Shown here one piece after another: positions 4,792 to 64,000 of a stretch of DNA of 64,000 nucleotides. Numbering within the stretch: the stretch's first letter is position 1; each line of letters opens with the position of its first letter. The notes beneath the pieces were generated by a model. The model was not told the DNA's origin. It searched no databases and worked only from the letters and a program-made list of their open reading frames with translations. The position numbers and the translations under genes were made by a program. Location of the stretch: positions 14,318 to 78,317 of the forward strand of contig JBCCFB010000002.1 of assembly GCA_039029995.1 (NCBI GenBank), read 5' to 3'. Source of the DNA: Planctomycetota bacterium (GTDB lineage Bacteria > Planctomycetota > Planctomycetia > Pirellulales > Pirellulaceae).

Positions 4792-6189
4792 CTAGTTCCC
4801 GATATTGAACAGGTCGAGGAAGAATGGCAGGATTCCGCTGCTGATCACAGAGTCCTCAGGCATCCACATATTCCGGCATATGTCGTAGGCGATCATGCCG
4901 CCAAGAACCAGCAATGATGCAACCAGTCCAAGGCTCAGCACCTGCCAGATGCTGTAGGGAGCCTCAGGAACTGCTGGTGCAGCAGTCGCGCCGACCATTC
5001 CAGCCGGAGCAAGCGCCGGCGCCATTGGATCGGCACCGTAGGCAGCATTGGGATCGTACATCCCGGCGTCGTCCAGCATCCCCGCTGGCTCAAGCATGTC
5101 ACTGTCGCCAAGCACCGTTGCGGATGACTCGTCGGCGTAAATCTCTGAGTCTTCCAGAGCAATAATCTGCGAACCACTGGTGTCGTCATCCATCGCTTCC
5201 TCAAGCGGAGTCAGATTGAAATCGTCCTCCTGCATCAAGGTGGCAGCGTCCGGATCTGCTGAATCTTCGAGGACGATCATGTCGTCGTCATCCGGCAGTT
5301 CAAGAGAGTCGATGTCCGATCCACTCAACTCGAGTGGCTCATCGTCCAGCGAGATTCCACTTTCATTGGCAGAAAGGTTTACACCACTTCCTGATGCTTC
5401 GAATACCAGTTCACTGTCTGAATCACTATCTTCCATGACGATATCGCTGTCCTCAAAATCGCTGCTGAGTTCGGCACTGTCTTCAAATACGGCTTCTTCA
5501 GAAAGTGAGAGTTCATCCGAGAACAAATCATCTTCAGAAAGAAGCATGTCATCGTCGGCGGCCAGCATCTTACCGGTGTCAGACGGGCTTCCACCGCCGC
5601 CTTCTACGTCGTCCAGCAGATCGCCGGTATCTTCGGCTGACGGATCTTTCTTGCTGCCGGCCAGCTCGAGAGAACTGCTTCCGAACGAAAGTGCGTCGTC
5701 GGCTTCATCGATCACATCGCCGGTTCCTGAATCGTCGCGTAGATTCAACTCACCGCTGTCCTGCAGGTTCAGCTCCGGTTCAGCCAGCGTCAGCTCATCG
5801 CCATCGAGATCCAGTGCGTCACTGACGGCGTCGATAGGTCGGGAAAGAATCTCGATGGATGATTCCTCTTCGACGTAACCACCTGACGAATCATCATCCA
5901 GCAGGGATGGAACGTCATCGTCGTCCAGCCCGAGAATCGAATCGCCAAGACCGGATCCGATTCCTGAATCGCCGGCAAGGTCTACGACCGAATCCGCTAC
6001 GTCAGGAGCTGAACCGAGAGAGACGCCGAGATCATCGGCGACGCGCTGCAATTCCGACATCTTGAATTTCCACGACGAGCCATCGCGGTATCCGAAGATC
6101 TCATTGTTCGAGCGCAGCTCAGTCAGTTTCTCCACAGACATGCCTAGCATGGCTGCAGCTTCTTCCATCGGGATCAGTGGGTTTGCCAT
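4792..6189 (-). CDS. Excisionase-like HTH domain + long acidic low-complexity region + C-terminal TM helix
   Basis: N-terminus IPMEEAAAMLGMS...IFGYRDGSSWKFKMSEL (HTH_17/MerR-like); about 340 aa rich in D/E/S/L/G; WQVLSLGLVASLLVLGGMIAY hydrophobic segment. Confidence 0.85.
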   Translation of the reverse strand: MANPLIPMEEAAAMLGMSVEKLTELRSNNEIFGYRDGSSWKFKMSELQRVADDLGVSLGSAPDVADSVVDLAGDSGIGSGLGDSILGLDDDDVPSLLDDDSSGGYVEEESSIEILSRPIDAVSDALDLDGDELTLAEPELNLQDSGELNLRDDSGTGDVIDEADDALSFGSSSLELAGSKKDPSAEDTGDLLDDVEGGGGSPSDTGKMLAADDDMLLSEDDLFSDELSLSEEAVFEDSAELSSDFEDSDIVMEDSDSDSELVFEASGSGVNLSANESGISLDDEPLELSGSDIDSLELPDDDDMIVLEDSADPDAATLMQEDDFNLTPLEEAMDDDTSGSQIIALEDSEIYADESSATVLGDSDMLEPAGMLDDAGMYDPNAAYGADPMAPALAPAGMVGATAAPAVPEAPYSIWQVLSLGLVASLLVLGGMIAYDICRNMWMPEDSVISSGILPFFLDLFNIGN

Positions 6190-48974: not shown

Positions 48975-50840
48975 TTGTCCACAGTTTCGAAACAAATTCA
49001 AAAGAGTGCTGCGGTGTCAGTTTTTCTCATGATGAACGCGGGCGCCAATTCAGGTGCACGCTTCGAACTCAAACGAGACGAAAAAAATCTCCTCGGTCGC
49101 GACTGGGATTGCAGAGTTGTTCTGAACGATCCGCAATGCTCACGCGTTCACGCCGAAATCTATCACGACGAAGACGGCTGGTGGGTGCGCGACAATGGCA
49201 GCAGCAATGGCACGTTTGTCAACGGCCAGACGATAGACAACGCAAGACTTACCGATGGAACAGAACTGCGCATCGGGAGCTGCCAGTTCACCTTCACCGA
49301 GAAATTTGACACCGCACCGGAACCCGAGGAAGACCCTGAATCACGTTCGACAAACATGACCGTGGTCCTCGACGAGTCAATGGACCCGTCAGAAACCGGC
49401 CAGTACACGTTGAACTTTTTGAAAGGTCACAACTGGGGCAAGGACTTCTTCTTTCTGTTTCAGCTGAGCGTAAAGCTGCTGGGCATCGATGACCCTGATG
49501 CCGTTGTCAGGATCTGCATGGGCAGATTGTTCGAGCGCATCGACGCATCGGCCGCCGGATTCCTCTGGTTATCTGATGATGGAAAGCTGAAACCGAAACT
49601 GGTCTTTCCCGATGACCAGCTGACCAGCGAGCTCGACATTAACGAGGACTTGACCCGTCGCGTCGTAAATCAGAAACGTGCGCTGAGGCTGGAAACAGAA
49701 ACCAAGGAAGGCTACGCAGATGCGATCTGTGTGCCCCTGATTTCCGAAGGCGAAGTCCAGGGCGCTATTCATCTGTATCGTTCGAGTCGTCCATTCCACG
49801 ACTCCCACTTTCAGCTGGCCTGCGCAATGGCGAACATCATGGTGCGTTCGCTGGCTAACGCGAACAAGCACACCTCACTCGCCGCAAAACATGACCGGCT
49901 GGTGCAAAAATCGGCTCAGTCCGATGAGCTGCTGGGCGAGAGCAAGGCAATGCTCGAACTGAAATCAAAAATCGTTCGCGTCGCCAAGGCATCGGGATGC
50001 GTGCTTATCCGGGGTGAGAGTGGAGCTGGAAAAGAACTTGTCGCACGTGCTATCCACCAGTCCAGTCCGCGTCGCGATCGCCCGATGTTGAGCGTCAACT
50101 GCGCGGCAATTCCGCGTGACCTGATGGAAAGCCAGCTATTCGGCCACAAAAAAGGCGCGTTCACAAGCGCCGACCGCGACCACATCGGCTGGTTCCAGCA
50201 GGCTGATCTGGGAACCCTGTTCCTTGATGAAATCGGTGAGCTGACGCTCGAAGGGCAGGCAAAACTGCTGAGAACGCTCGAAGGTCACCCATTTCTCCCG
50301 GTCGGCGGAACTGAAGAAGTTCAAGTTGACGTTCGTGTGATCTGCGCGACCAACCGTGACCTCAAAGAATTCGTCGCCGAAAAACAATTCCGCGAAGACC
50401 TGTTCTATCGCCTCAGCGTCTACGAACTTTATATTCCGCCGCTTCGCGACCGTGAGAGCGATATCCAGATGTTGATCAATCACTTTCTGGATCATTTCCG
50501 TAATCACCACGGCAAGTTCGATTTGTCGCTATCCAAAGAAGCCAACGACAGGCTTCTTGCCTATCAATGGCCCGGCAATGTCCGTCAACTGCGAAACGTG
50601 ATTGACAGCGCCGTCGTCATGGCTGATGACGCCGAGATACAGGTCGACGACATTGGAATCCGGGATGCGGCCGATGCCGGCGAATTCGAGACTCTTCGTA
50701 TTGATCACTGGGAACGCAAGCTGATCGTTGATGCTTTGAAACGGACCAGCAACAGCGTTCCCAAAGCGGCAGGCTTGCTCGGAATCAGCCGCGCGACTCT
50801 ATATCGCAAGATCGACGAATACGGAGTCGAACGGAAATAG
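48975..50840 (+). CDS. Sigma-54 enhancer-binding protein, FHA-GAF-AAA-HTH
   Basis: FHA (LGR...SRVHA...DNGSSNGTFVNG), GAF-like region, GESGAGKE, GAFTSA, FLDEIGE, RVICATN, WPGNVRQL, Fis HTH (LGISRATLYRK). Confidence 0.94.
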   Translation: MSTVSKQIQKSAAVSVFLMMNAGANSGARFELKRDEKNLLGRDWDCRVVLNDPQCSRVHAEIYHDEDGWWVRDNGSSNGTFVNGQTIDNARLTDGTELRIGSCQFTFTEKFDTAPEPEEDPESRSTNMTVVLDESMDPSETGQYTLNFLKGHNWGKDFFFLFQLSVKLLGIDDPDAVVRICMGRLFERIDASAAGFLWLSDDGKLKPKLVFPDDQLTSELDINEDLTRRVVNQKRALRLETETKEGYADAICVPLISEGEVQGAIHLYRSSRPFHDSHFQLACAMANIMVRSLANANKHTSLAAKHDRLVQKSAQSDELLGESKAMLELKSKIVRVAKASGCVLIRGESGAGKELVARAIHQSSPRRDRPMLSVNCAAIPRDLMESQLFGHKKGAFTSADRDHIGWFQQADLGTLFLDEIGELTLEGQAKLLRTLEGHPFLPVGGTEEVQVDVRVICATNRDLKEFVAEKQFREDLFYRLSVYELYIPPLRDRESDIQMLINHFLDHFRNHHGKFDLSLSKEANDRLLAYQWPGNVRQLRNVIDSAVVMADDAEIQVDDIGIRDAADAGEFETLRIDHWERKLIVDALKRTSNSVPKAAGLLGISRATLYRKIDEYGVERK

Positions 50841-53744: not shown

Positions 53745-54569
53745 TTACGAAACCCGTTCGAGCTTTGACCGGTTATGTTTGCGATACAGCGTCTTCGCTT
53801 TCTTCTTCTGCCGGTTTGCGAGCTTCACATCTGCACCGTTATCCAGCAGTAGATCAACACCTGCTCCGTATGTGTCCAGCGCGCCCATGTGAAGCGCCGT
53901 GTATCCGTCCACCAGTTGGTTGACATCGGCACCCGACTCGATCAGCAATTCGACGATCTGGCAGTTGCCGATTGATACTGCCGCCATTAAAGGCGTACCC
54001 AGAATTGCGGAGACTGAGTCCGGGTCAACGCCGGAGCTCAGCAGAAAGCGCAGGATCTTCTCAAGCGACCCGCGGCTGTTGTCTCCCATGTGGCAAAGTC
54101 GCGCCAAAAGATCGCCGGAACAGTTGGCTCCGTTGGCGACCAGCAACTCGACCATCTTGAATTGCAGATTCTGCGCAGCGTCGTTGAGGCAATGGTCCAG
54201 TTCCTCCTGAGTCGCACTCGGAAATAGCAGTCTCACGAGAGGTGTTCTATTCAAGCGGACCGCCCAGAAAAGCGCAGAATCTCCACACGCATCACAGGAT
54301 TGCGCCGTACCACCGAGCTGGACGAGCAAGCGAACTTTTCCCCGCTCATTCATTCGAACCGCCCAGACCAGTTCTTCACAAGCACCCTGACTGAGCTCAC
54401 CGTCGACCAGAAGTCCTTCCTCCCGAAAAGCTTCCTTTAGATTTTCAAAACCCCTGGCGCTGAGTTTACCTTGGCTTGCCTTTTCAAACTGTTTGAGCAA
54501 AGATCCACCAATAGGGCTTCGATCTCGAAACTTCCGGTAAACAGCAGCTGGTATTTTTTTTGATGGCAT
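53745..54569 (-). CDS. Ankyrin repeat protein
   Basis: GDSALFWAV, GTPLMAAV...LLIESGADVN, GYTALHMGA...LLLDNGADV. Confidence 0.9.
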   Translation of the reverse strand: MPSKKIPAAVYRKFRDRSPIGGSLLKQFEKASQGKLSARGFENLKEAFREEGLLVDGELSQGACEELVWAVRMNERGKVRLLVQLGGTAQSCDACGDSALFWAVRLNRTPLVRLLFPSATQEELDHCLNDAAQNLQFKMVELLVANGANCSGDLLARLCHMGDNSRGSLEKILRFLLSSGVDPDSVSAILGTPLMAAVSIGNCQIVELLIESGADVNQLVDGYTALHMGALDTYGAGVDLLLDNGADVKLANRQKKKAKTLYRKHNRSKLERVS

Positions 54570-54593
54570 AAGCGTATCCGCGTATTCGGGAGG

Positions 54594-56078
54594 CTACTTC
54601 TTTCCACGCCGAGTCTTGAAGCCTTTTGTCCGTTCAACGAGCTGGTTGAAGGCTCGTTTTCCGGTCGGCGGTCTTGTTCCGGACGCTTGCCTTTCCCACT
54701 GGGCTGCCTTGGTCGGGCCGAGCTTTCCATCTTCAACAGCGGCAATCAATAGAATCAGCAAATGTTTGCAGGTTCCTCTGGTCAAGGACATGCAGTGACT
54801 ACCACTTGCGGTGAAGCATGCGATCTCACCGTCGGAACTAAGCCGGCATCTGTTGCCGTCCACGACTGCGACCGCTTCATCGCGTGAGACTTCGTAAGCA
54901 AGTTTTTCAAGATGACCTTCGCGGATCATCCAGTCCACCAGCACTTGTCTCTGCGGGAAAATGTCTTTGGTGATAAACTCGCGGAACCCGGCTCTGGTAA
55001 CTCTCGTGCGTCTGGCTTTACCTTCGTCCAGAAACGGATTGGGCCCTTTGCCCGACCACGACAACAGGCTGTCACGAAAAGCGCGAGGCCAGCGTGTGGA
55101 TTCATTAAAGATTGCTTTTTTGAAAGCAACAGATTCGAACTTTGCTGATCGAAAATCTGCACCTCTTAAATCTGCGCCGCTGAGATCTACATTTTTCAAT
55201 CGCGCATTTTTGAAGGTTGCCCCCTTCAATGAAGCCTTTCTCATAGTCAGCGGCTTTTTCGGGTCCCCCTGCAGTCGCGCTGACGCAAAGCTTGCGCGGG
55301 TCAATGTGGCATGATCAAGCGAGCCGCCCTCAAAAACCGTCCTCGAAAATGTTGCTTCAGAAAGTTTTGATTTGGAAAAGTCAGGGCGTACCAGCCTTGC
55401 CTTTTCAAAATTGCACTGTGAGAGATCGACTTCTGAGAAGTTCACAGAAACCAATTCGGCTCCCGAAAGATCAATTTCATTCAGACGCGGACGACCATCG
55501 GATTTCTTGAAGTGGCTTCTCCAGTTACGTGTTTTCCCATTGCGAAGATCTGCTGCTACGAGTGCAGCCTGTTTGCGGCTCGAAGCCCGCCTGCTGGCTT
55601 TTGCCCGAGCTATTTCCTTGTCGCCGGCGGTATCAACTCCGAGTGACTTGCAAAGCCCTCGCACAACAAGTGCTTTCAATTTGCGACCGGAAACAGGGCT
55701 CTTCTCCGACTTGACCTTGATCGTGTCGAGTTGCAGCTCGCTCATCGGGAAGAGGCGGCCCATTTCCCGCATAGCTTCGCCAAACTTGTACATACGTATG
55801 CGAAAGTACTCGAACTTCCGATGGTTCTCGAACAAATCGAGGCTGCCGGTAGATCCGTTGAAGCTGGGATCGTCGTAGGTAATGCCGGTTTCAAGATGCG
55901 TACCCCAACGGTATGAACCGCCCATGGGATAGGCGCGGATTTCAAAGCTACCACCGAACGCGCCTGCTTCGATCGTCATCTTTGCGCCGGTGGCGGTAGT
56001 CAGTGATGCTTCGAACGTCAGCTTTGCTGCCTGACCTACAACGTCATCAAGTTCGTCAAATACTTCTGGTACAGGCAT
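54594..56078 (-). CDS. Pentapeptide repeat protein with C-terminal SWIM-like Cys/His motif
   Basis: DLSGAEL..., ASLKGATFKNARLKNVDLSGADLRGADFRSAKF; CFTASGSHCMSLTRGTCKHL. Confidence 0.85.
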   Translation of the reverse strand: MPVPEVFDELDDVVGQAAKLTFEASLTTATGAKMTIEAGAFGGSFEIRAYPMGGSYRWGTHLETGITYDDPSFNGSTGSLDLFENHRKFEYFRIRMYKFGEAMREMGRLFPMSELQLDTIKVKSEKSPVSGRKLKALVVRGLCKSLGVDTAGDKEIARAKASRRASSRKQAALVAADLRNGKTRNWRSHFKKSDGRPRLNEIDLSGAELVSVNFSEVDLSQCNFEKARLVRPDFSKSKLSEATFSRTVFEGGSLDHATLTRASFASARLQGDPKKPLTMRKASLKGATFKNARLKNVDLSGADLRGADFRSAKFESVAFKKAIFNESTRWPRAFRDSLLSWSGKGPNPFLDEGKARRTRVTRAGFREFITKDIFPQRQVLVDWMIREGHLEKLAYEVSRDEAVAVVDGNRCRLSSDGEIACFTASGSHCMSLTRGTCKHLLILLIAAVEDGKLGPTKAAQWERQASGTRPPTGKRAFNQLVERTKGFKTRRGKK

Positions 56079-56134: not shown

Positions 56135-58528
56135 CTAGATGACGTACCCTGGATCAGCATACTCAGGTTCCTGACGTGAAGATCCAATGGCGATTCCACC
56201 GGCGATATGCCAGATATTGGACAGCCCCACCCGCCTTGCGACACTTGCAGCGCGCCCGCTGCGCCGACCACTTCGACAAAGGAAAACAATCTGCCGTCCG
56301 GACTTGCTGATAGCGATCAGCTCAGGCAGGCAGCCGGTCAGTCGAGTGAGTGGAATGTTTCGTGGAGGCTGGTCGAGCCCCATTTTGTGCCAGTCACCCG
56401 CGAACGAGAATTCATGAGGCTCCCGCACATCGATGATCAAAGAATCGTTGTGAGAAGCGAAAAACTCTTTGAGACCATCCGGAGGAATATCCACGGACGT
56501 TCCGGTTGAGACTGCATCGGGATCTTTGATCAGTCCGCAAACCAGTTCAGAATTCGATTCGTCCTGTATACCCTGATCGACCCCGGGCTTGGCAGCAACA
56601 AAATCCTCACGGCGCATCGGCACGACTGGATCCAGAATTGAAGCAAGAAATTCGTTTGTTTTAACTTCACATCCGAGCGTCGTTGCAAACTCGTTGTTGT
56701 AGTCGTGCGTCGGGCAGATGACTGTAGCGTCTGATGAGATGATATTCGATAAACGATGAAGCGAATCGAACATCCCTTCGACTGAACTCGATTCGAAATC
56801 AGTCCGGCCGATTCCGCCCATCAGAACCGTGTCTCCGCAGAACGCAAACAGAATGTTTGCAGCATCGAGTTTTCCATCTACCGGTTTGCCGACAAGATAG
56901 GCATTGCTGATAACCGTATGGCCGGGCAGTTTGACAGCCGCAAGTACCAGACCGTTGAAAAGATTGATGCATTCAGCCGACTCGCCGTTTGCAAGAGTCA
57001 CTGAGCCATCGGGCTCATGTGGCCAGCCCAGCAGATCTCCGCTGTTGGCACGCGGCTGGATGTACTGGCCAAGCACTTTCAACTGCATCGACCTGCAGGA
57101 TTCATGGTCAACATGATTGTGGCTGTCCAGAATCGCAATGACCCGACTGCCCTGACAGCGTACGAGTGTCTCTACCCGCTCCGAGAGCTCTTCGAAAGGA
57201 TCGATAATCACACACTGACTGGATTCAGAATCCATCAGCAGCCACGTACACATCGAGCCTTTCTTGAGCTGAACCAGTCCGTCAACGCGACCGCCGGTTT
57301 GCGTAACCGGATCGTTTGAAACCATCAGGCAACTGTCGCACAGCGCGCGGCCTACCTGCCGGATCCGGTCGCAGGCCATTTCGATTTCCTTCTCCGTATT
57401 CATCGGGCCGAAGGACATGCGGATGGCACCTTCACTACGCCACTTTTCGATGCCCATTGCATCGAGCACATAAGACGCGACGGCCCCCGAACCGCACGCC
57501 GATCCGGAACTGACACGGATGCCCGCGGCATCAAAAAGATCCAGAAGCTCTTTACTGGAAAATCCACGTACCGCAAAGTTGATAGTTGTCGCGACCGAAG
57601 TCTCAAACGGAGTGTTGAAAACGATCGTCGGAAATGCCTCCGTCAAACTCTGCACGATCCGGTCTCGAAAGTTCTCCAGAGAATCGTGACTGGCAAACTC
57701 TGCGTTGGGAGAGATGTCGAGCATCTTCAATACAGCAGCAATTGCAGCAACGCCCGGCAGGTTCTCTGTTCCGCCGCGCGCTCCATGTTCCTGGCCGCCG
57801 CCGGCCATCAGAGGAACGACTGATGCGCCCTTTCGTACATAAAGCAGGCCGATGCCTTTCGGGGCGTAGATCTTATGCCCGCTGGCAGAAGCGTAGTCGA
57901 TTGTTGTTGTGGCCAGATCGAGCTTCATTTTTCCAACCGCCTGCACCGAGTCGACAAGCCACTTGCAATGTTCATTGACCGATCGCAGGACATTTTCAAT
58001 CGCCCTCAGGTCGTGAATGACTCCGGTTTCGTTATTCACCGCCATCGTGCAGACCATCGCTGCATGGGGAGCGTGTTCTTTCAGAAATTCCAGATCAAGC
58101 GCGCCCCTGGAGTCCACTGGAATCTCAAGAATCTCGCAACCTGCGTCCAGAACTTCATTCCAGTGTTCAAGTGCTTTTGGAACCGCCTTGTGTTCAGTGG
58201 CTCCGTAAAGCAACTTGCAAGCCTTGCCGGCGATATCGCATTGCTGCTTCCGTTTCCGGAAGTCACACAACGTCGAAAGAATTGCCATCTGGATCGCTTC
58301 GGTCGCACCACTCGTAAAAACGATTTCGCCTTCGCCCGCACCAAGTACAGACCTTGCCAGATCACGTGTCGACTCAAGCAGATATCGCGCGCGGAGTCCC
58401 GAAGTGTGTACGCTGCTCGGATTGCCGAACAGATCCTCCATTGCATCAAATGCGGCGTGTGCAGCTTGCGGAAGCACAGGCGTAGTCGCATTAACATCGA
58501 GGTAGATTTCTTTGTTTGCCTTGATCAT
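56135..58528 (-). CDS. Cysteine desulfurase - persulfide dioxygenase (MBL) - rhodanese three-domain fusion
   Basis: IYLDVNATT, FTSGATE, ASGHKIYAPKG (PLP Lys), SSGSAC (catalytic Cys); SHNHVDH, PGHT, GDT, GRTDF, PTHDY; DVREPHEF, CRSGRRS. Start ATG 58528. Confidence 0.93.
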   Translation of the reverse strand: MIKANKEIYLDVNATTPVLPQAAHAAFDAMEDLFGNPSSVHTSGLRARYLLESTRDLARSVLGAGEGEIVFTSGATEAIQMAILSTLCDFRKRKQQCDIAGKACKLLYGATEHKAVPKALEHWNEVLDAGCEILEIPVDSRGALDLEFLKEHAPHAAMVCTMAVNNETGVIHDLRAIENVLRSVNEHCKWLVDSVQAVGKMKLDLATTTIDYASASGHKIYAPKGIGLLYVRKGASVVPLMAGGGQEHGARGGTENLPGVAAIAAVLKMLDISPNAEFASHDSLENFRDRIVQSLTEAFPTIVFNTPFETSVATTINFAVRGFSSKELLDLFDAAGIRVSSGSACGSGAVASYVLDAMGIEKWRSEGAIRMSFGPMNTEKEIEMACDRIRQVGRALCDSCLMVSNDPVTQTGGRVDGLVQLKKGSMCTWLLMDSESSQCVIIDPFEELSERVETLVRCQGSRVIAILDSHNHVDHESCRSMQLKVLGQYIQPRANSGDLLGWPHEPDGSVTLANGESAECINLFNGLVLAAVKLPGHTVISNAYLVGKPVDGKLDAANILFAFCGDTVLMGGIGRTDFESSSVEGMFDSLHRLSNIISSDATVICPTHDYNNEFATTLGCEVKTNEFLASILDPVVPMRREDFVAAKPGVDQGIQDESNSELVCGLIKDPDAVSTGTSVDIPPDGLKEFFASHNDSLIIDVREPHEFSFAGDWHKMGLDQPPRNIPLTRLTGCLPELIAISKSGRQIVFLCRSGRRSGRAASVARRVGLSNIWHIAGGIAIGSSRQEPEYADPGYVI

Positions 58529-58696
58529 ATATCCGTAGGCGCCGATCGGCCCTGAAGGTGGTTTGAGCATCTATACCTACAGTATATGCGAAGATGCCCT
58601 TCCTGCTGCCGGGAACCGGTGGGATTGAGCGGGAAGCTTTGACGGATTGTCAGAAGAGACCGGCGCGGCAGACTTTGACGTCAGGGCCGGTGCAAC

Positions 58697-60535
58697 CTAG
58701 CCGGCTTTGCGCTTTTCGGTGGCAGCTACAGAGCTGCTGTTGTCGCCGATTTTGACCGCGACGCCGTCAAGGCTGCGGACATGTAGATCCTGTTGCGGGA
58801 ACGCGATCTCAATGTTCTTCTCACGGAATGCGCGGTCAATGATCATGTTCAATTCGTGCTGTACATCAGCAAAATTATCCCGCGATGGAATCACCACTCG
58901 CAGCTCAAAGTCGAGAGTGCTCGATCCAAAGCACTGGAAAACCACCTGTGGAGGCGGATCATTCAGTACCAGCGGGCTTTGACGAGCGACGTCGAGCAGT
59001 GTTGACTGGACCAATTCTGTATCCGAGCCGTAGGCCACGCCAATCTGGAAGGTGAGCCGCGAAAGGCGATCGGACAACGTCCAGTTCATCACGTCTTCGG
59101 TGATGAATTTCTTGTTGGGCACAATCAGTTCCCGATGGTCAAGATCACGAATGGTTGTAGCCCTCAATTCCATCCGGGTAACAGTTCCCGTCACATTGTT
59201 GACCGTAACTACATCACCCACACGAACCGGCCGTTCGATCAGGATGATGATCCCGGAAATCAGGTTGGCGAAGATTTCCTGAAGACCGAAACCGAGCCCG
59301 ACACTTAGACCTGCTGCAAGCCACTGCACGCTGGTCCACGAAAACCCGAGCAGATGAAAAGTCGTCAACAGTCCGGCGACGCCGACCATATATCTGACCA
59401 CAAATGAAATGGCGTATCGCCCGCCACGATCAAGCGGAAGACGATCCAGCAAAGTGATTTCCAGCAGACCGGGAAGATTACGACTGAGAACGAAAGTGAT
59501 CACCAGTAGCCCCGCTGCCATCAACAAGTGCCGGATCGTGACCCAGGCATATTCACCACCGGAATCTGTAAGTGCCGTTGCCGAACGCCAGAGGCCGGTT
59601 TCAAAAAGACCCGAAGACGGTATGACGCTGCCCCAGACGTACCATGCTGCGACAACCATACTGACAATCGCCGTCACGCGAAGCAGACGGTTGACCTGAC
59701 TTGAAATCTCCAGAATGTCGATCGATTCGCCACTGTCGATTCGACCTTCGTCATCACGGGTCAGCTGCCGGAGCTTGATACGGAATTGTGTGATCAACAG
59801 TAGACGGCTTGCCAGTGCAGCGGCCATTGCGATGCCGATCGAAAAGAGTACGGTCCAGAACATTCGCCAGCTGAGCCTGACAGCCGTGAAGTAGTAACCA
59901 GTGCAGGCCATCAACGCGAGCGCGGTCGGAATTCCAATGGAAAGACGCAGAAACATCAATCGCCAGAATCCGGCGCTTGAGGGGGTGTTGGAGGAGGCAG
60001 TATCACCTTCCATCCAAGTGGAAATCTGAATCGATGCGAACCACAGGCCCGTCGCAAAAACGGCCATAGACGCCACAAAGAAAAACCTGCCCAGCGTGTC
60101 GAAGTAGACACCGGAATCAAACGTCTCCAGCGACGTGTATAAGAACTGAAGCGGAATACACAACAGCACCATCCATCCGATCGCCCGACGGAGGCCGCAA
60201 CAAAGTTTCGGTGACCAGTTGTAATGCGTCTCCGCTACGCCACCCTGTTTCAATGCTTTCAACAGCACCAGGCCACTGAATAACATCGGGAGGCAAAGCC
60301 ACATCGAGCGCATCACGCTTCCTCGAAGTGAACTGGCCTCGTAGTTGGGTGACAGTTGCCACAGAATCAGCCAGAAGATAAGCGGCACAAAAAGCGCCGC
60401 AAAAACGGCGTGAGTCGTTGCGCGAACGGTGGGGCCGAATCGTGAAAACGACTCGATGTGATTCAGCAGAGTTTCGTTAGGACCTGCTGAAACCGCTTCG
60501 TTGACTACGTGGTCGGTCACGGTGTTCTCCGTCAC
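58697..60535 (-). CDS. MscS-family mechanosensitive channel, membrane/C-terminal half of MscK-like protein
   Basis: Multiple TMs; GLGFGLQEIFANLISGIIILIERPVRVGD, IVPNKKFIT, VGVAYG-like IGVAYGSD, IEIAFPQQDLH. Confidence 0.92.
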   Translation of the reverse strand: MTENTVTDHVVNEAVSAGPNETLLNHIESFSRFGPTVRATTHAVFAALFVPLIFWLILWQLSPNYEASSLRGSVMRSMWLCLPMLFSGLVLLKALKQGGVAETHYNWSPKLCCGLRRAIGWMVLLCIPLQFLYTSLETFDSGVYFDTLGRFFFVASMAVFATGLWFASIQISTWMEGDTASSNTPSSAGFWRLMFLRLSIGIPTALALMACTGYYFTAVRLSWRMFWTVLFSIGIAMAAALASRLLLITQFRIKLRQLTRDDEGRIDSGESIDILEISSQVNRLLRVTAIVSMVVAAWYVWGSVIPSSGLFETGLWRSATALTDSGGEYAWVTIRHLLMAAGLLVITFVLSRNLPGLLEITLLDRLPLDRGGRYAISFVVRYMVGVAGLLTTFHLLGFSWTSVQWLAAGLSVGLGFGLQEIFANLISGIIILIERPVRVGDVVTVNNVTGTVTRMELRATTIRDLDHRELIVPNKKFITEDVMNWTLSDRLSRLTFQIGVAYGSDTELVQSTLLDVARQSPLVLNDPPPQVVFQCFGSSTLDFELRVVIPSRDNFADVQHELNMIIDRAFREKNIEIAFPQQDLHVRSLDGVAVKIGDNSSSVAATEKRKAG

Positions 60536-60561: not shown

Positions 60562-62709
60562 TCAGGAGGCATCGGGGCGCTGCCTGATCGTTCGATGTGA
60601 TCTGGGCTTAATGCGATTGGTAAATAACGCCAGGCCGAGCAGGGACACGACCCATAGCGCGGTTCTCTGCGGTTTGTGCAGCAGGCTATCGGTCAGCTCA
60701 AGCCCCAGCTTTGACCATTCGGCGGGCGCAAAAAACGCAGCCACTCCACGCATGGCCGGCTGAACATCATTCAGGCTCACTGGACTTGAACTCTGGATCC
60801 AGAGTGCGTGCTGGTCGATATACTCTCTCGCTTCCCATGTTCGTGCCGCGAGTGTTTCGTGGTTGTTCGCGACATCACTGAGCAGTCCACGATACGTATC
60901 AAAATCGGCAATGAGATCGTTCAAGTAGTTGCGTTTCGCTTCGGTCATCCGCTGCGCTTCTTCGGAAAACTGCTGCTGAGAAAGTCCGTTTGCCTGTTGG
61001 CCGCGAATCAGTTCCTCCACGAATTCCCGAGTATGGGCCAGCGGCTCACGTTCCTCCTGAAGATGGAGAACGTCGAGATTGAGAGCCTGAAGCTCATCTT
61101 TGATTTCGCGAACGCGGGCGAGTGATTCATAGGGAGGCAATAGTTCGCGACGGTTCTCAACCAGCAGCGCGCCGCTGCCGATCGTTGCGCCTTCGGTTGC
61201 CTCAATTCGAGTCCGCATTGTCGTCAGACGTTCCTCAACATCATCGATACCGTTCAACACACGGTTCACTTCCAGCTCGACATCTCGAATCTTCTGTGTG
61301 ATATCGATTCGTTGCTGAGTCAATTCGTGATTGCGCTCCGCGATCGCCTTCAGCGCCGGAAGTGCTGCAATGGCTTCCTGCCTTGCCTGCTCGGCTTGCC
61401 TGCGGATTTCCTCTTCTTTGATATTCGCAATAGCCTGTTGCCACGTGTTGACTTCCTCCTCAATGACTTTGACTCGCCGCAGTAGCGCGTCTCTTCGCAT
61501 AGGCAGGACTTTCCCCGCCCATTCCTGCCACTTGACTTCGCTGTCCAGCATCTCAAGCCGGTTTGCCAATGCCAGTCGTCTGGCCGCGAGGAGAATATGG
61601 TTGATCGTTGAAACTTCATCATCATGAGTGGCCGTCGCGAGCCGCTCTTCGACTTCACGTAGTTGATCTAGTGTGTCTGATCGGATTGACGGAATCTCCG
61701 TAATGCGATCGCGCTGAATGTCGATGTCATGACGAACCATATTCAGCTTGGAACGCTCATCGTGCAGGCGTTGCCTGTGGTCTTCCAGCAGGATTTGCAA
61801 TGAAGCGGCGGCGTTATCGTCATCCTCTGGAATCTGCAGAGGGCGGGCTGAAATCTCGGTCGCCAGTTGAACTTCAAGGTCTTCGTACTCTGAAGGGAAC
61901 TCAGCCAGTTCAAGCTTGTACTTCTGGCTGTTCTCTACATAGGTTTCATTCTTCTGCAGCTCGTTCGATGCGCGTGCAAGTAGTTCAAGCCGACTCTGTC
62001 TTTCCGCATCTGTGATCTGCGCGTCGTTGCGCGCGATCTCCTCATGTACGGAGATTTCACGCCGGACGACGCTCTCGTTCATTTCCCCGTCAAAGTCGTT
62101 GCCGTCTTCGATCTCATTGGCGTGAGGCAACAGTGACAACGGAATCACGGTTCCTGACGGGAGGATGATGAACGGTTGCTGTGGCAACTGGACATCATTG
62201 TCAGTGACCTCATCTGAGACGGATTCGTCTTGTAGATTTAGGCCACCGATCCGCGCAAGGCTGAGCGTAAATGGCTGCTGATACGAAGCCGGTTCAACTG
62301 ATTGATCACTGAATGGTTGCAGTTGGCCAACCACGGTTCCAATCTCGGCAGGCACATTGGCGACAGGTAACGGAGCAGCGCCGTCCATTGGAATGTGCCG
62401 CTCGGGTTCTCTGCGAGCAGCCGGAACGTCCCCGTCGTCGCCGCCTAGAATCGCTTTCAACTCCGAATCGCTGTACACCTGTTCAACGATCACCGCCTGT
62501 TGTTCGAAAACCGGCTTCAGCGGGTTTCCTGACAGTACCGCTTCGACCTGCTGCGCCCGCGACTCCGCAGACTGCGCTGGAATGGGCTGCAGAGGCCCGG
62601 ACTGTGCCAACCCCTCAACCACTGGAAGAGTCGTTACAACGATAATCGCAAACCGGATGAATGCGCGTTCAGCCGCGTTCATGTCTGATGCTCTCAAATA
62701 AACTGACAC
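60562..62709 (-). CDS. Periplasmic coiled-coil N-terminal half of MscK-like channel
   Basis: Signal-like N-terminus, long heptad-rich region, LWIQSSSP followed by one TM, as in MscK N-termini; directly upstream of the MscS half. Confidence 0.8.
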   Translation of the reverse strand: MSVYLRASDMNAAERAFIRFAIIVVTTLPVVEGLAQSGPLQPIPAQSAESRAQQVEAVLSGNPLKPVFEQQAVIVEQVYSDSELKAILGGDDGDVPAARREPERHIPMDGAAPLPVANVPAEIGTVVGQLQPFSDQSVEPASYQQPFTLSLARIGGLNLQDESVSDEVTDNDVQLPQQPFIILPSGTVIPLSLLPHANEIEDGNDFDGEMNESVVRREISVHEEIARNDAQITDAERQSRLELLARASNELQKNETYVENSQKYKLELAEFPSEYEDLEVQLATEISARPLQIPEDDDNAAASLQILLEDHRQRLHDERSKLNMVRHDIDIQRDRITEIPSIRSDTLDQLREVEERLATATHDDEVSTINHILLAARRLALANRLEMLDSEVKWQEWAGKVLPMRRDALLRRVKVIEEEVNTWQQAIANIKEEEIRRQAEQARQEAIAALPALKAIAERNHELTQQRIDITQKIRDVELEVNRVLNGIDDVEERLTTMRTRIEATEGATIGSGALLVENRRELLPPYESLARVREIKDELQALNLDVLHLQEEREPLAHTREFVEELIRGQQANGLSQQQFSEEAQRMTEAKRNYLNDLIADFDTYRGLLSDVANNHETLAARTWEAREYIDQHALWIQSSSPVSLNDVQPAMRGVAAFFAPAEWSKLGLELTDSLLHKPQRTALWVVSLLGLALFTNRIKPRSHRTIRQRPDAS

Positions 62710-62842: not shown

Positions 62843-62882
62843 AAAAAAAATAGACGCCGCGCGGCAGGTGCCGCGCGGCGTC
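62843..62882 (-). terminator. Rho-independent terminator downstream of RTX-like gene
   Basis: A8 run then GACGCCGCGCGGC-aggt-GCCGCGCGGCGTC hairpin. Confidence 0.88.
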
Positions 62883-62970
62883 CGTTCCAAGCTTGCCGCT
62901 CGTGAGCGACCGCTAAAAGAATCCAGTTGTCTGGAGTTATCTGATGAGCGGGTTCATTGAATCGCCGACA

Positions 62971-64000
62971 TCAAAACAAATTGTTTACGTTCAAGATCGC
63001 GTCATTGAACTGAAGGAATTCGACGTTGCTGAGAGTATCATCTCCGTCAGGACCGACAACTTGAATCTGTCCGTTACCAAGATTGATCATCTGGTAGTCG
63101 TTGACTGAACCGAAGAAGACAGCAGTGTCCTCTCCTTCGCCACCGTCAATCTGGTCGTTGCCACTGCCACCGGTAAGAATATCGTTGCCGGAATCTCCGA
63201 AGATCAGATCGTTACCAGCCTGACCTTCAACACGGTCGTCGCCTTCGCCACCGGTCAGGAAATCGACACCGTCGTTGCCTGCCAACCGGTCATTTCCGAA
63301 GCCACCGACGAGGCGGTCATTACCTGTTCCACCGATCAAAACATCACTACCGGCACCACCATTGATTTGATCGTTTCCAGCCGCGCCGCGAATGTCATCG
63401 TCGCCAGCGTTTCCAAGCAGCACGTCGCCGGCACCAGTGCCTTGCAGCTGATCATTGCCGCTGGTTCCTTCGACAGGAGCAGTAAACTGGAGGTCGTTCA
63501 AGCCGATTGTGGTGTTATTGAACTGGAAGTTCTCGACATTCCGGACCAGGTCGGTACCGTCGCGACCGATGACGGTGATCGAACCATCACCGTTTTCAAC
63601 GAATCGATATTCTTCCAGCCGCCCGGTGAATACTGCTATGTCGTTTCCGGCACCCCCGTCAAGTACATCCTGATCCGGGCCACCGTTGAGGATATCATCG
63701 CCGGCCTGGCCGAAGATGCGGTCATTACCGCGGATACCCAGAATTGTGTCATTACCGGCTCCGCCGAATGCTACATCCTCCCCCTTTTTGGCTTCAATGA
63801 AGTCGTCTCCATCACCGCCATCGAGGAAGTCATCACCGGCTCCGGCATCGAGGAAGTCATCACCGTCGTTACCGATCAATCTGTCGTTGCCGTCCTGTCC
63901 GCGGATGAAGTCATCTCCGCCACCACCGAACAGGCTGTCGTTTCCTGCGTTGCCTTGCAAGTCATCGTCGCCAGCTCCACCTGAAACGAAATCGTTATCC
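62971..64000 (-). CDS. Calcium-binding RTX/hemolysin-type repeat protein (C-terminal part; starts beyond window)
   Basis: Many GGxGxDxLx nonapeptides; frame is open to the window edge (DNDFVSGGAGDDDLQGNAG...). Confidence 0.92.
   Translation of the reverse strand, partial: DNDFVSGGAGDDDLQGNAGNDSLFGGGGDDFIRGQDGNDRLIGNDGDDFLDAGAGDDFLDGGDGDDFIEAKKGEDVAFGGAGNDTILGIRGNDRIFGQAGDDILNGGPDQDVLDGGAGNDIAVFTGRLEEYRFVENGDGSITVIGRDGTDLVRNVENFQFNNTTIGLNDLQFTAPVEGTSGNDQLQGTGAGDVLLGNAGDDDIRGAAGNDQINGGAGSDVLIGGTGNDRLVGGFGNDRLAGNDGVDFLTGGEGDDRVEGQAGNDLIFGDSGNDILTGGSGNDQIDGGEGEDTAVFFGSVNDYQMINLGNGQIQVVGPDGDDTLSNVEFLQFNDAILNVNNLF

What the first reader, a model, noticed from the sequence alone, without database searches (positions are those of the whole stretch)
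56135..58528. Single-polypeptide cysteine desulfurase + persulfide dioxygenase + rhodanese: possible self-contained cysteine-sulfur oxidation machine
Seen: one uninterrupted ORF carries three enzyme domains with catalytic residues intact: NifS/IscS-type desulfurase (SGHK PLP lysine, SSGSAC cysteine), an MBL domain with ETHE1-type persulfide dioxygenase signatures (HxHxDH, PGHT, GD, GRTDF, PxHDY) and a rhodanese (CRSGRR). No isc, suf, thi or moa genes flank it. Established: desulfurases form an enzyme persulfide, rhodaneses transfer sulfane sulfur, and PDOs oxidise glutathione persulfide to sulfite; two-function PDO-rhodanese fusions (Burkholderia PRF, S. aureus CstB) are characterised. Inference: adding the desulfurase would channel Cys -> persulfide -> rhodanese -> GSSH -> sulfite/thiosulfate, i.e. 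cysteine catabolism or detoxification rather than Fe-S biogenesis. I know of no characterised three-domain example.
Basis: partly seen in the sequence, partly recalled or inferred. Interest (0 to 1): 0.82.

Follow-up and report, generated by a model that had tools for sequence, protein, structure and literature searches.

The report
Three-enzyme cysteine-sulfur oxidation fusion protein
One 797-residue protein of a marine planctomycete joins a cysteine desulfurase, an iron-dependent persulfide dioxygenase and a rhodanese, all apparently active; it belongs to a large, uncharacterised family that probably turns cysteine sulfur into sulfite or thiosulfate without free intermediates.

Summary
A minus-strand ORF (56135-58528, 797 aa) encodes a NifS/IscS-type cysteine desulfurase, an ETHE1-type persulfide dioxygenase (PDO) and a rhodanese. 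Every catalytic residue is invariant in more than 120 homologue clusters. By sequence and by fold, the middle domain groups with PDOs and PDO-rhodanese fusions, not with glyoxalase II.

- **Supporting sulfite or thiosulfate output:** in 8 of 17 loci of close relatives that are not suf-linked, a TauE/SafE-type sulfite-exporter gene lies directly next to the fusion gene.
- **Complicating it:**
  - In 25 related Mariniblastus loci the gene lies inside the suf operon (sufR-C-B-D-fusion-Rieske-sufT), though not in this genome.
  - The gene is accessory. It occurs in 22 of 36 congeners, and SufS is found in all 41 genus genomes searched.
  - This genome and most carriers lack recognisable glutathione synthesis, so the proposed GSSH step is doubtful.
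- **Family history:** the fused desulfurase domains form one clade in which PDO ligands were lost repeatedly, while the desulfurase and rhodanese sites persist.

A two-domain CD-Rhd fusion and PDO-rhodanese fusions have been characterised. No paper describing the three-domain form was found. Verdict: real, conserved, and a new variant of known kinds; the function is inferred, not shown.

The parts
56135..58528 (-). Whole gene: 797-aa desulfurase-PDO-rhodanese fusion (stop codon 56135-56137). An alternative upstream ATG at 58570 would give 811 aa.
57329..58528 (-). Residues 1-400: type I (NifS/IscS-like) PLP cysteine desulfurase domain. H113, D193, Q196, K219 (57872-57874), R370 and the mobile-loop Cys345 in SSGSAC (57494-57511) are all invariant in the family.
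56525..57286 (-). Residues 415-668: ETHE1-type persulfide dioxygenase (MBL fold). Motifs: HNHVDH 57104-57121, PGHT 56915-56926, GD..GRTDF 56795-56836, CPTHDY 56699-56716, and C664-G665 at 56534-56539 in a low-confidence linker.
56159..56506 (-). Residues 675-790: single rhodanese domain with the active-site loop C751-RSGRRS (56258-56278).
56138..56188 (-). Residues 781-797: predicted disordered C-terminal tail ending in a conserved [YF]-x-I-COOH. Its function is unknown.
58529..58696 (-). 168-bp upstream intergenic region. It holds no sigma-70-like promoter match and no copy of the conserved suf-promoter motif. No terminator-like site lies here either, so the gene may be co-transcribed with the upstream MscK-like genes.

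Best explanation
The gene encodes a cytoplasmic, accessory enzyme that strips sulfur from L-cysteine and oxidises it within one polypeptide.

**Step 1 (inferred from invariant residues and fold).** The PLP-dependent NifS/IscS-type domain converts cysteine to alanine and leaves a persulfide on the mobile-loop Cys345.

**Step 2 (shown for a two-domain CD-Rhd fusion from Pseudorhodoferax, inferred here).** The persulfide passes to the rhodanese Cys751, which speeds desulfurase turnover.

**Step 3 (inferred).** The sulfane sulfur is presented to the mononuclear Fe(II) site of the ETHE1-type domain (His472/His537/Asp566, with Arg575 and Tyr610). There O2 oxidises it to sulfite. Sulfite can react with a second rhodanese persulfide to give thiosulfate.

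**Carrier.** This genome lacks recognisable glutathione synthesis. The carrier is therefore probably not GSSH but another small thiol or a protein cysteine. Candidates are C605 of CPTHDY, C664-G665 in the flexible linker, or the C345-G346 loop itself.

**Product fate and role.** In many relatives a neighbouring TauE/SafE permease would export the anion. The likely role is O2-dependent disposal or turnover of cysteine-derived sulfane sulfur. In one Mariniblastus subclade this is placed under the suf (Fe-S stress) operon.
For: - The three domains and all catalytic residues are present and invariant.
- The middle domain ranks with PDOs and PDO-rhodanese fusions, by sequence and by fold, well above glyoxalase II.
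- The full-length AF2 model is confident (pLDDT 86, pTM 0.84). Its mobile segments fall exactly at the Cys345 loop and at the PDO-rhodanese linker.
- A CD to Rhd persulfide relay, with about 10-fold activation, was shown biochemically for a natural CD-Rhd fusion (PMC8931425).
- PDO-rhodanese fusions make sulfite or thiosulfate (PMC12934615).
- A Pfam-confirmed TauE/SafE gene is directly adjacent in 8 of 17 non-suf loci. These include loci labelled Verrucomicrobiales and Fuerstiella, where a sulfite reductase also lies next to the gene.
- One relative sits beside ComA, which uses sulfite.
- The gene is accessory. It is in 22 of 36 congeners, and SufS is found in all 41 genus genomes searched, above the family cut-off in 36. 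This genome also has its own SufS and SufE.
- Absence of GSH synthesis.
Against: - There is no biochemical or expression evidence for this protein or any three-domain member.
- In 25 related loci the gene lies in the suf operon, which points to Fe-S assembly rather than catabolism.
- About 28 representative clusters of the wider family have lost the PDO metal ligands but keep the desulfurase and rhodanese sites. One such degenerate member still sits next to TauE. Oxidation is therefore not the family's conserved core, and TauE linkage does not prove PDO-made sulfite.
- The window's own neighbours (MscK-like channel, pentapeptide and ankyrin proteins) say nothing about sulfur.
- All structurally characterised ETHE1-type PDOs prefer GSSH. 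A GSH-free substrate is conjecture.
Confidence: 0.5

Rival explanations
1. The protein is a sulfur-mobilising desulfurase for Fe-S cluster assembly (SUF) or another thio-cofactor pathway. The rhodanese acts as the persulfide relay to the acceptor, in the manner of SufE, TusA or ThiI. The PDO domain acts only as an O2-dependent overflow valve or sensor that destroys undelivered persulfide.
For: - In 25 related loci the gene occupies the slot between sufD and the Rieske ferredoxin/SufT genes, downstream of a SufR-like regulator.
- Type I desulfurases are known to hand sulfur to rhodanese domains (established for IscS-ThiI and NFS1-MOCS3; shown for CD-Rhd).
- The desulfurase and rhodanese sites are the conserved core of the wider clade.
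Against: - suf linkage is a derived trait of one Mariniblastus subclade. The window's copy, its 72%-identical nearest relative and the outgroup copies are not suf-linked.
- SufS is found in all 41 genus genomes searched whether or not the fusion is present, and this genome has SufE.
- 14 of 36 congeners lack the fusion altogether.
- This genome's suf operon works without it, with two unrelated genes in that slot.
- No copy of the conserved suf promoter motif lies upstream of the window's gene.
Confidence: 0.25
2. The PDO-rhodanese half works as in BpPRF or CstB. It handles persulfides or thiosulfate that arise from environmental sulfide or thiosulfate (detoxification or assimilation). The desulfurase domain is a secondary source of sulfane sulfur.
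For: - The C-terminal half aligns end to end with BpPRF and is its best structural match.
- TauE next to a PDO-rhodanese gene recalls the S. aureus cst operon (own knowledge, not tested here).
Against: - This genome already has a separate CstB/Blh-like MBL-rhodanese protein next to a molybdopterin oxidoreductase cluster, a more obvious candidate for that job.
- None of the loci examined showed an annotated SQR gene next to the fusion.
- The desulfurase domain is as strictly conserved as the rest of the protein.
Confidence: 0.1
3. The PDO domain is only a structural spacer, as in the many relatives with degenerate ligands. The working enzyme is then a CD-Rhd persulfide generator that persulfidates proteins or small thiols.
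For: - Intact and degenerate forms are interleaved in the desulfurase tree, with at least 9 changes. About 28 representative clusters lack the ligands yet keep the domain.
- The characterised CD-Rhd fusion catalyses transpersulfidation efficiently.
Against: - In this protein's own subfamily (more than 120 clusters at 55-72% identity), every metal ligand is invariant. So are Arg575, the HDY motif and C664-G665. That is hard to explain for a non-catalytic spacer.
Confidence: 0.1

Closest known systems
BpPRF, the persulfide dioxygenase-rhodanese fusion of Burkholderia (Paraburkholderia) phytofirmans (PDB 5ve3-5ve5)
   Same: The C-terminal half has the same domain order (ETHE1-type PDO, then rhodanese). 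The alignment runs end to end (E 5.6e-19), and BpPRF is the best structural match (4.7e-21). The metal ligands, GRTDF, HDY, the C-G motif and the CRxGxR loop are all shared.
   Different: BpPRF has no desulfurase domain. It prefers GSSH, whereas this genome lacks recognisable GSH synthesis. Identity is only 23-24%. The relative orientation of the two domains differs from the crystal structure (rmsd about 16 Å over both domains).
Natural CD-Rhd fusion of Pseudorhodoferax sp. Leaf274 (Selles et al., J Biol Chem 2022, PMC8931425)
   Same: Both have an N-terminal class V desulfurase and a C-terminal single rhodanese, each with a catalytic cysteine. That study demonstrated a Cys-to-Cys persulfide relay and activation of the desulfurase. 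Short CD-Rhd forms are nested inside the same desulfurase clade as this protein.
   Different: The Pseudorhodoferax enzyme is about 500 aa and has no PDO domain. It therefore releases sulfur as persulfide or H2S rather than oxidising it. Whether that particular enzyme belongs to the clade found here was not tested.
CstB of Staphylococcus aureus (PDO, pseudo-rhodanese, rhodanese)
   Same: It is a multidomain PDO-rhodanese enzyme from an organism without GSH. A Cys-Gly dipeptide on a flexible loop carries the persulfide into the iron site, and the product is handed to the rhodanese cysteine. That is a precedent for carrier-free oxidation of a protein-bound persulfide.
   Different: CstB belongs to a different PDO type, and the PDB matches to CstB-like chains (3r2u, 3tp9) are weaker. 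It has no desulfurase domain. The CstB-specific C201 loop is not present here, and the candidate cysteines in this protein are only conjecture.
Arabidopsis mitochondrial cysteine catabolism through a sulfurtransferase and ETHE1
   Same: The overall chemistry is the same: cysteine sulfur becomes a persulfide, then sulfite or thiosulfate, through a sulfurtransferase and an ETHE1-type dioxygenase (own knowledge). AtETHE1 (2gcu) is among the best matches to the PDO domain.
   Different: In the plant pathway the enzymes are separate, sulfur enters through 3-mercaptopyruvate, and GSH is the carrier. Here a desulfurase is fused to the other two activities and GSH is probably absent.
IscS/NifS/NFS1 type I cysteine desulfurases
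   Same: The fold matches (TM-score 0.8-0.9 normalised by target length), with 26-32% identity in the listed matches. The PLP lysine, the substrate arginine and the SSGSAC mobile loop are shared.
   Different: Scores fall below the NCBIfam equivalog cut-offs (NifS 290 against 531; IscS 215 against 643). The genome has no IscU/NifU_N. The fused desulfurase domains form a clade of their own, apart from stand-alone enzymes.

Membership tests
Class V / type I cysteine desulfurase (NifS/IscS group) | Aminotran_5 fold with PLP-binding Lys, His/Asp/Gln PLP contacts and a substrate Arg | tested here: met
   Pfam Aminotran_5 at 7.8e-58. Foldseek TM-score 0.8-0.9 (normalised by target) to 1ecx, NFS1 and IscS. 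H113, D193, Q196, K219 and R370 are invariant.
Class V / type I cysteine desulfurase (NifS/IscS group) | Catalytic Cys on a long mobile loop (SSGSAC) | tested here: met
   C345 in SSGSAC is invariant. The loop has low pLDDT (344-348), as expected for a mobile element.
Class V / type I cysteine desulfurase (NifS/IscS group) | Scores as an equivalog of NifS or IscS (NCBIfam curated cut-off) | tested here: not met
   TIGR03402 NifS scores 290.3 against a cut-off of 530.75. TIGR02006 IscS scores 214.7 against 643.2. The protein is a member of the superfamily, not an ortholog of either.
ETHE1-type (type I) persulfide dioxygenase | MBL fold with the 2-His-1-Asp iron site within HxHxDH / PGH / GD | tested here: met
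   H470, H472, D474, H475, H537 and D566 are invariant. Foldseek ranks 1-22 are PDOs or MBL-rhodanese fusions.
ETHE1-type (type I) persulfide dioxygenase | PDO-specific motifs GRTDF and (P/A)xHDY plus the C-terminal C-G, which separate PDOs from glyoxalase II | tested here: met
   R575, D577, F578, H608, D609, Y610, C664 and G665 are invariant. They are also kept, with a few substitutions at R575 and D577, in 14 divergent intact representative clusters.
ETHE1-type (type I) persulfide dioxygenase | GSSH-dependent O2 consumption that yields sulfite | not testable with these tools
   This needs an enzyme assay. The genomic hint runs against GSH as carrier: no GshB, GCS2 or Glu_cys_ligase in this genome.
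Glyoxalase II (hydroxyacylglutathione hydrolase) | Closest relatives by sequence and fold are GloB/GLX2 enzymes, and the NCBIfam cut-off is reached | tested here: not met
   TIGR03413 scores 58.7 bits against a cut-off of 200.8. PDB glyoxalase II hits are at 1e-6 to 4e-4, against 1e-19 to 1e-11 for PDOs. Glyoxalase II first appears at Foldseek rank 24.
PDO-rhodanese fusion (PRF) proteins | PDO followed by a catalytic rhodanese (CRxGxR loop) in one chain | tested here: met
   A single alignment to BpPRF spans both domains. C751, R752, G754, R756 and S757 are invariant.
PDO-rhodanese fusion (PRF) proteins | Two-domain architecture without further catalytic domains | tested here: not met
   A complete 400-residue desulfurase precedes the PRF-like half.
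SUF Fe-S assembly system (as its desulfurase component) | Encoded in the suf operon with sufBCD | tested here: not met
   In this genome the suf operon is on another contig (C120) and lacks the fusion gene. The feature is met in 25 loci of relatives.
SUF Fe-S assembly system (as its desulfurase component) | Type II SufS-like desulfurase working with SufE or SufU | tested here: not met
   TIGR01979 sufS scores 113.9 bits against a cut-off of 475. A genuine SufS (517 bits) and a SufE are encoded elsewhere in the genome.

The most novel reading that the evidence does not exclude
The protein may be a carrier-free, self-contained sulfur oxidiser. The persulfide made on the desulfurase's swinging loop, or relayed to the rhodanese or to a conserved PDO-domain cysteine such as C605 or C664-G665, would be inserted directly into the iron site. 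It would then be oxidised as a protein-bound persulfide, with no glutathione or other small thiol involved. In the suf-linked subclade this machine would serve as an O2-gated overflow valve for sulfur mobilised for Fe-S assembly. The three-domain form would also be the ancestor from which the simpler CD-Rhd enzymes arose by repeated decay of the dioxygenase.
Probability: 0.2. Interest if true: 0.8.

Novelty: new variant of a known kind. Interest (0 to 1): 0.6.

Why it matters
- **A new enzymatic route.** Each half of this protein has a characterised relative (CD-Rhd fusion, PDO-rhodanese fusion). Joined, they would convert cysteine sulfur to sulfite or thiosulfate in a single polypeptide, which no paper found here describes. 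That would be a new route of cysteine and sulfane-sulfur turnover in abundant marine Planctomycetota and some other bacteria.
- **A test case for PDO substrates.** An ETHE1-type dioxygenase in organisms without glutathione synthesis allows a direct test of what PDOs use as substrate outside the GSSH paradigm.
- **A possible link to Fe-S homeostasis.** Its placement in suf operons in one lineage suggests a link between Fe-S stress regulation and oxidative disposal of persulfide. No paper found in these searches describes such a link.
- **A natural experiment.** The repeated loss of the dioxygenase ligands across the family shows which parts of the sulfur relay are indispensable.

Tried and rejected
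- **Glyoxalase II reading of the MBL domain:** rejected by sequence and fold ranking and by the signature motifs.
- **'The fusion is the SUF desulfurase of these bacteria':** rejected. SufS is found in all 41 genus genomes searched, and the fusion is missing from 14 of 36 congeners.
- **'The window's copy recently moved out of the suf operon':** not supported. The window's copy and L011 form a separate, well-supported branch outside the suf-linked clade.
- **Shared regulation with suf in this genome:** the conserved suf promoter motif (TTGACATATnnGGTTGTGAAA) lies upstream of sufR on C120. It does not occur upstream of the fusion gene. Whether this motif is the SufR operator is not known.
- **'The Cys-Gly after the catalytic Cys (SSGSACG) is a glutathione mimic tied to the PDO':** weakened. 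The Gly is found in 119 of 121 close relatives, but other intact-PDO fusions have Ser or Asn there.
- **Horizontal transfer judged by base composition:** GC is uniform at 0.51-0.56 across the region.
- **Phylum-wide survey with the C-terminal half:** 0 of 400 other Planctomycetota species matched at E <= 1e-20. The family is therefore patchy. The first-look filter of that tool may also have missed some copies.
- **Taxon names of divergent representatives:** none were available.
- **Earlier notes of this scan:** none found.
- **Distances between active sites in the AF2 model:** not measurable, because model coordinates are not exposed.
- **Mapping of GSH-contact residues:** the BpPRF paper (PMC5572905) is not held in the library.
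Full report
**1. The observation**

The reported interval holds a single open frame on the minus strand. The longest ORF is 56135..58570 (811 aa). The ATG at 58528 gives 797 aa (P0001), which fits homologues of 795-801 aa that begin at the equivalent Met.

- Pfam finds Aminotran_5 (E 7.8e-58), Lactamase_B (1.7e-6) and Rhodanese (2.8e-6) in that order.
- Against PDB sequences, the N-terminal 390 residues match the Thermotoga NifS-like protein 1ecx (7.6e-62), NFS1 and IscS.
- Residues about 423-779 match the Burkholderia PDO-rhodanese fusion BpPRF in one alignment that spans both domains (5.6e-19 when searched alone). The next matches are Arabidopsis, human and Myxococcus ETHE1-type enzymes.
- In an alignment of 120 homologues, and again in a 47-sequence alignment, the following are invariant: PLP Lys219, His113, Asp193, Gln196, Arg370, loop Cys345, His470/His472/Asp474/His475, His537, Asp566, Arg575, Asp577, Phe578, His608-Asp609-Tyr610, Cys664-Gly665, and the rhodanese Cys751-Arg-x-Gly-x-Arg-Ser.

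**2. Is the middle domain a PDO or a glyoxalase II?**

- By sequence, PDOs score 1e-19 to 1e-11 and glyoxalase II enzymes 1e-6 to 4e-4.
- The NCBIfam GloB model scores 58.7 bits against a cut-off of 200.8.
- I folded the C-terminal half with an 18-sequence alignment (pLDDT 82.6, pTM 0.84) and searched the PDB with Foldseek. Ranks 1-22 are all PDOs or MBL-rhodanese fusions: BpPRF 4.7e-21, 3tp9, human ETHE1 6.8e-15, Beggiatoa PDO, AtETHE1, Myxococcus ETHE1, SdoA and PA2915. The first glyoxalase II (1qh3) is at rank 24 with 1.4e-10.

Together with GRTDF, HDY and the C-terminal C-G, the domain is an ETHE1-type PDO by every test available here. Activity itself cannot be tested with these tools.

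**3. How common is the architecture?**

- A word-indexed search found more than 120 clusters (90% identity) of about 800-aa proteins, 55-72% identical over the full length. Where named, they come from Mariniblastus, Pirellulaceae, unclassified Planctomycetota, Fuerstiella and one Verrucomicrobiales bin. The only annotations are 'aminotransferase class V-fold PLP-dependent enzyme' or 'cysteine desulfurase'.
- The window's genome belongs with Mariniblastus. Its nearest relative is 72% identical.
- Within the genus, 22 of 36 other species carry the gene. None of 24 other families of the order does, and 0 of 400 other species sampled across the phylum matched.
- The gene is therefore conserved where present but patchy overall.

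**4. The wider family**

An exhaustive profile-free search of 1.8 billion representatives was followed by domain mapping with HMMs built from the family.

- 14 representative clusters (50% identity level) have all PDO ligands intact.
- About 28 clusters have a middle domain of 170-260 residues that has lost the metal ligands, GRTDF, HDY and C-G.
- A few clusters are direct CD-Rhd fusions with a 20-40 residue linker.
- In most of these clusters the PLP lysine motif, the SSGSAC loop and the CRSGxRS loop remain.

A maximum-likelihood tree of the desulfurase domains gives two results.

- The fusion-type desulfurases fall on one side of a fully supported branch (61 rows), apart from 21 of 22 stand-alone NifS/IscS enzymes. 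Two rows classed as direct CD-Rhd fall on the stand-alone side.
- Inside that clade, intact and degenerate forms are interleaved. At least 9 changes are forced by well-supported branches, and several sister pairs are one intact and one degenerate.
- Regaining a full ligand set is implausible. The simplest reading is therefore an ancestral three-domain protein whose dioxygenase decayed many times. This is inference from a quick tree of metagenomic representatives.

**5. Genomic context**

In the window, the neighbours on the same strand are a two-gene MscK-like mechanosensitive channel upstream and pentapeptide-repeat and ankyrin proteins downstream. No isc, suf, thi or moa genes are present. 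The channel-fusion synteny is shared with the nearest relative L011. No convincing terminator separates these genes.

Elsewhere the picture differs.

- **suf operon.** In 25 distinct loci of Mariniblastus relatives the gene lies in the order sufR-like regulator, sufC, sufB, sufD, fusion, Rieske ferredoxin, SufT (FeS_assembly_P).
- **This genome's suf operon.** The same operon is on contig C120 but lacks the fusion. Two unannotated genes occupy the slot between sufD and the Rieske gene.
- **Where suf linkage arose.** The protein tree shows suf linkage confined to one derived subclade (15 suf-linked rows plus 3 that are not). The window's copy with L011, the M. fucicola branch and the outgroups lie outside it.
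- **Canonical machinery.** SufS was found in all 41 genus genomes searched, above the family cut-off in 36, whether or not the fusion is present. This genome has SufS (C23) and SufE (C241) and no IscU. The fusion is therefore an accessory gene, not the SUF desulfurase.

**6. The second recurrent neighbour**

- Among 17 loci of the close subfamily that are not suf-linked, 8 have a TauE/SafE-family gene (PF01925, 'sulfite exporter') immediately adjacent. In seven of the eight it is on the same strand. These are L036/37 (labelled Verrucomicrobiales), L038 (Fuerstiella), L025/L080, L079 and L091-L094. Six were confirmed by Pfam at 1e-25 to 1e-47.
- In the Fuerstiella locus a sulfite reductase lies convergently downstream.
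- A divergent member (P0130) sits directly after ComA, phosphosulfolactate synthase, an enzyme that uses sulfite, within a lipid/ACP gene cluster.
- These contexts fit sulfite or thiosulfate as the product.
- A caution: one member with a degenerate PDO (P0136) also has a divergent TauE neighbour. More distant members have unrelated neighbours such as MsrB, histidine/phenylalanine ammonia-lyase, alanine dehydrogenase, an extra MBL gene and a YeiH-like transporter.
- This genome has a TauE homologue, an assimilatory-type sulfite reductase and one SUOX-family gene, all unlinked to the fusion.

**7. The carrier problem**

In this genome (91.5% complete):

- the best GshB match is 62.9 bits against a cut-off of 299;
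- there is no GCS2 match and no Glu_cys_ligase match.

Across 41 genomes of the genus, only 7 have a GshB above the cut-off and none has Glu_cys_ligase. Of the 22 fusion-bearing congeners, 5 have GshB. The eukaryotic-type ligase family was not searched.

All structurally characterised ETHE1-type PDOs prefer GSSH. CstB, from a GSH-free organism, oxidises a persulfide carried on its own Cys-Gly loop and passes the S-sulfonate to its rhodanese (PMC12934615). A carrier other than GSH, or a protein-bound substrate, is therefore likely here.

Candidate cysteines are:
- C605 (CPxHDY), kept in 11 of 14 divergent intact clusters;
- C664-G665, kept in 14 of 14 and lying in a low-confidence flexible linker;
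- the loop C345-G346. The Gly there is specific to the close subfamily, which weakens that idea.

**8. Structure**

The full-length AF2 model (47-sequence alignment) has pLDDT 86 and pTM 0.84. Low confidence is confined to residues 242-252, the Cys345 loop (344-348), the PDO-rhodanese linker (660-675) and the C-terminal tail. The high pTM suggests a defined arrangement of domains. Coordinates are not exposed, so distances could not be measured, and the expected desulfurase dimer was not modelled.

**9. What is already known**

- A two-domain CD-Rhd fusion from Pseudorhodoferax has been characterised. It is a PLP homodimer with both desulfurase and thiosulfate sulfurtransferase activities. It relays a persulfide from Cys334 to Cys466, which raises desulfurase turnover about tenfold (PMC8931425).
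- PDO-rhodanese fusions (BpPRF, CstB) have also been characterised.
- Four full-text searches found no description of a desulfurase-PDO-rhodanese protein. The library does not cover most subscription journals.

**10. Verdict**

The protein is a genuine, conserved, three-domain enzyme.

- **Most likely mechanism (confidence about 0.5):** cysteine gives a Cys345 persulfide, which passes to the rhodanese Cys751. It is then oxidised with O2 at the iron site to sulfite and/or thiosulfate, probably without glutathione. In many relatives TauE exports the product.
- **Main rival (about 0.25):** the protein is a sulfur donor to SUF or another acceptor, with the PDO acting as a safety valve.

It combines two characterised kinds of fusion into an undescribed third, so I rate it a new variant of a known kind, of moderate to high interest. 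Nothing about its activity has been shown; the decisive experiments are simple enzyme assays.

Noticed in passing
window 58697-60535 and 60562-62709 (minus strand): An MscK/KefA-like mechanosensitive channel is encoded as two adjacent ORFs 26 bp apart. One (715 aa) has the MscS_porin domain; the other (612 aa) has MscS_TM plus the MS_channel domains. The same split, and the same position just upstream of the fusion gene, occur in the nearest relative L011 (48% and 69% identity), so it looks like a natural two-gene arrangement rather than a frameshift.
   Followed up: partly
window 62971-63960 (minus strand); terminator-like site at 62852-62883: An RTX-type calcium-binding repeat protein (10 HemolysinCabind stretches, E 3.1e-61) is followed by the strongest terminator-like hairpin in the region (14 pairs, 12 of them G-C, then a T-run).
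   Followed up: no
window 48975-50840 (plus strand): A sigma-54 activator has an unusual FHA + GAF + AAA+ + HTH_8 architecture.
   Followed up: no
window 53745-56078 (minus strand): A pentapeptide-repeat protein (494 aa) and an ankyrin-repeat protein (274 aa) follow the fusion gene at gaps of 56 bp and 24 bp, so they may be co-transcribed with it. This arrangement is not found in L011.
   Followed up: partly
own genome, contig C120:3497-11692 (outside the window): The suf operon of this genome runs sufR-sufC-sufB-sufD, then two genes with no NCBIfam match (245 aa and 181 aa), then the Rieske gene and HPPD. The two genes occupy exactly the slot where relatives carry the fusion gene. An ORF on the opposite strand at 4863-5270 probably overlaps an uncalled sufT.
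   Followed up: partly
own genome, contig C58:11998-19124 (outside the window): A second MBL-rhodanese protein (475 aa, CstB/Blh-like, with HxHxDY and HGAGSACG motifs) lies directly after three other genes. These encode a molybdopterin oxidoreductase (967 aa, PhsA/DMSO-reductase family), a fused 4Fe-4S/membrane subunit and a chaperone-like protein. This may be the genome's housekeeping cluster for oxidising persulfide, sulfite or thiosulfate.
   Followed up: partly
window 56138-56188 (residues 781-797), and the C-termini of homologues: A predicted disordered tail ends in [YF]-x-Ile-COOH in about 117 of 121 close homologues (YMI, YVI, FVI and similar). The same ending is found in three divergent intact-PDO representatives (P0127, P0133, P0135). 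Its purpose is unknown; it could be a docking peptide.
   Followed up: partly
L019 about 3100-3140, and C120 about 200 bp upstream of sufR: A conserved promoter-like element, TTTTTGACATAT(nn)GGTTGTGAAA(n)T(n)GT, lies upstream of the sufR-like gene in Mariniblastus suf operons, including this genome's. It may be the SufR operator. It is absent upstream of the window's fusion gene.
   Followed up: partly
L097 9350-10237 and L098 9162-9947: In two divergent metagenomic loci, a separate stand-alone MBL (PDO-like) gene lies convergently just downstream of the three-domain gene. In L098 it is followed by a PF03601 (YeiH-like) transporter gene.
   Followed up: no
locus of P0130 (no DNA was returned): A three-domain member sits in a gene cluster with ComA (phosphosulfolactate synthase), MBOAT, an AMP-binding enzyme, ACP genes and a KAS III. 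The fusion may supply sulfite there for synthesis of a sulfonated lipid.
   Followed up: no
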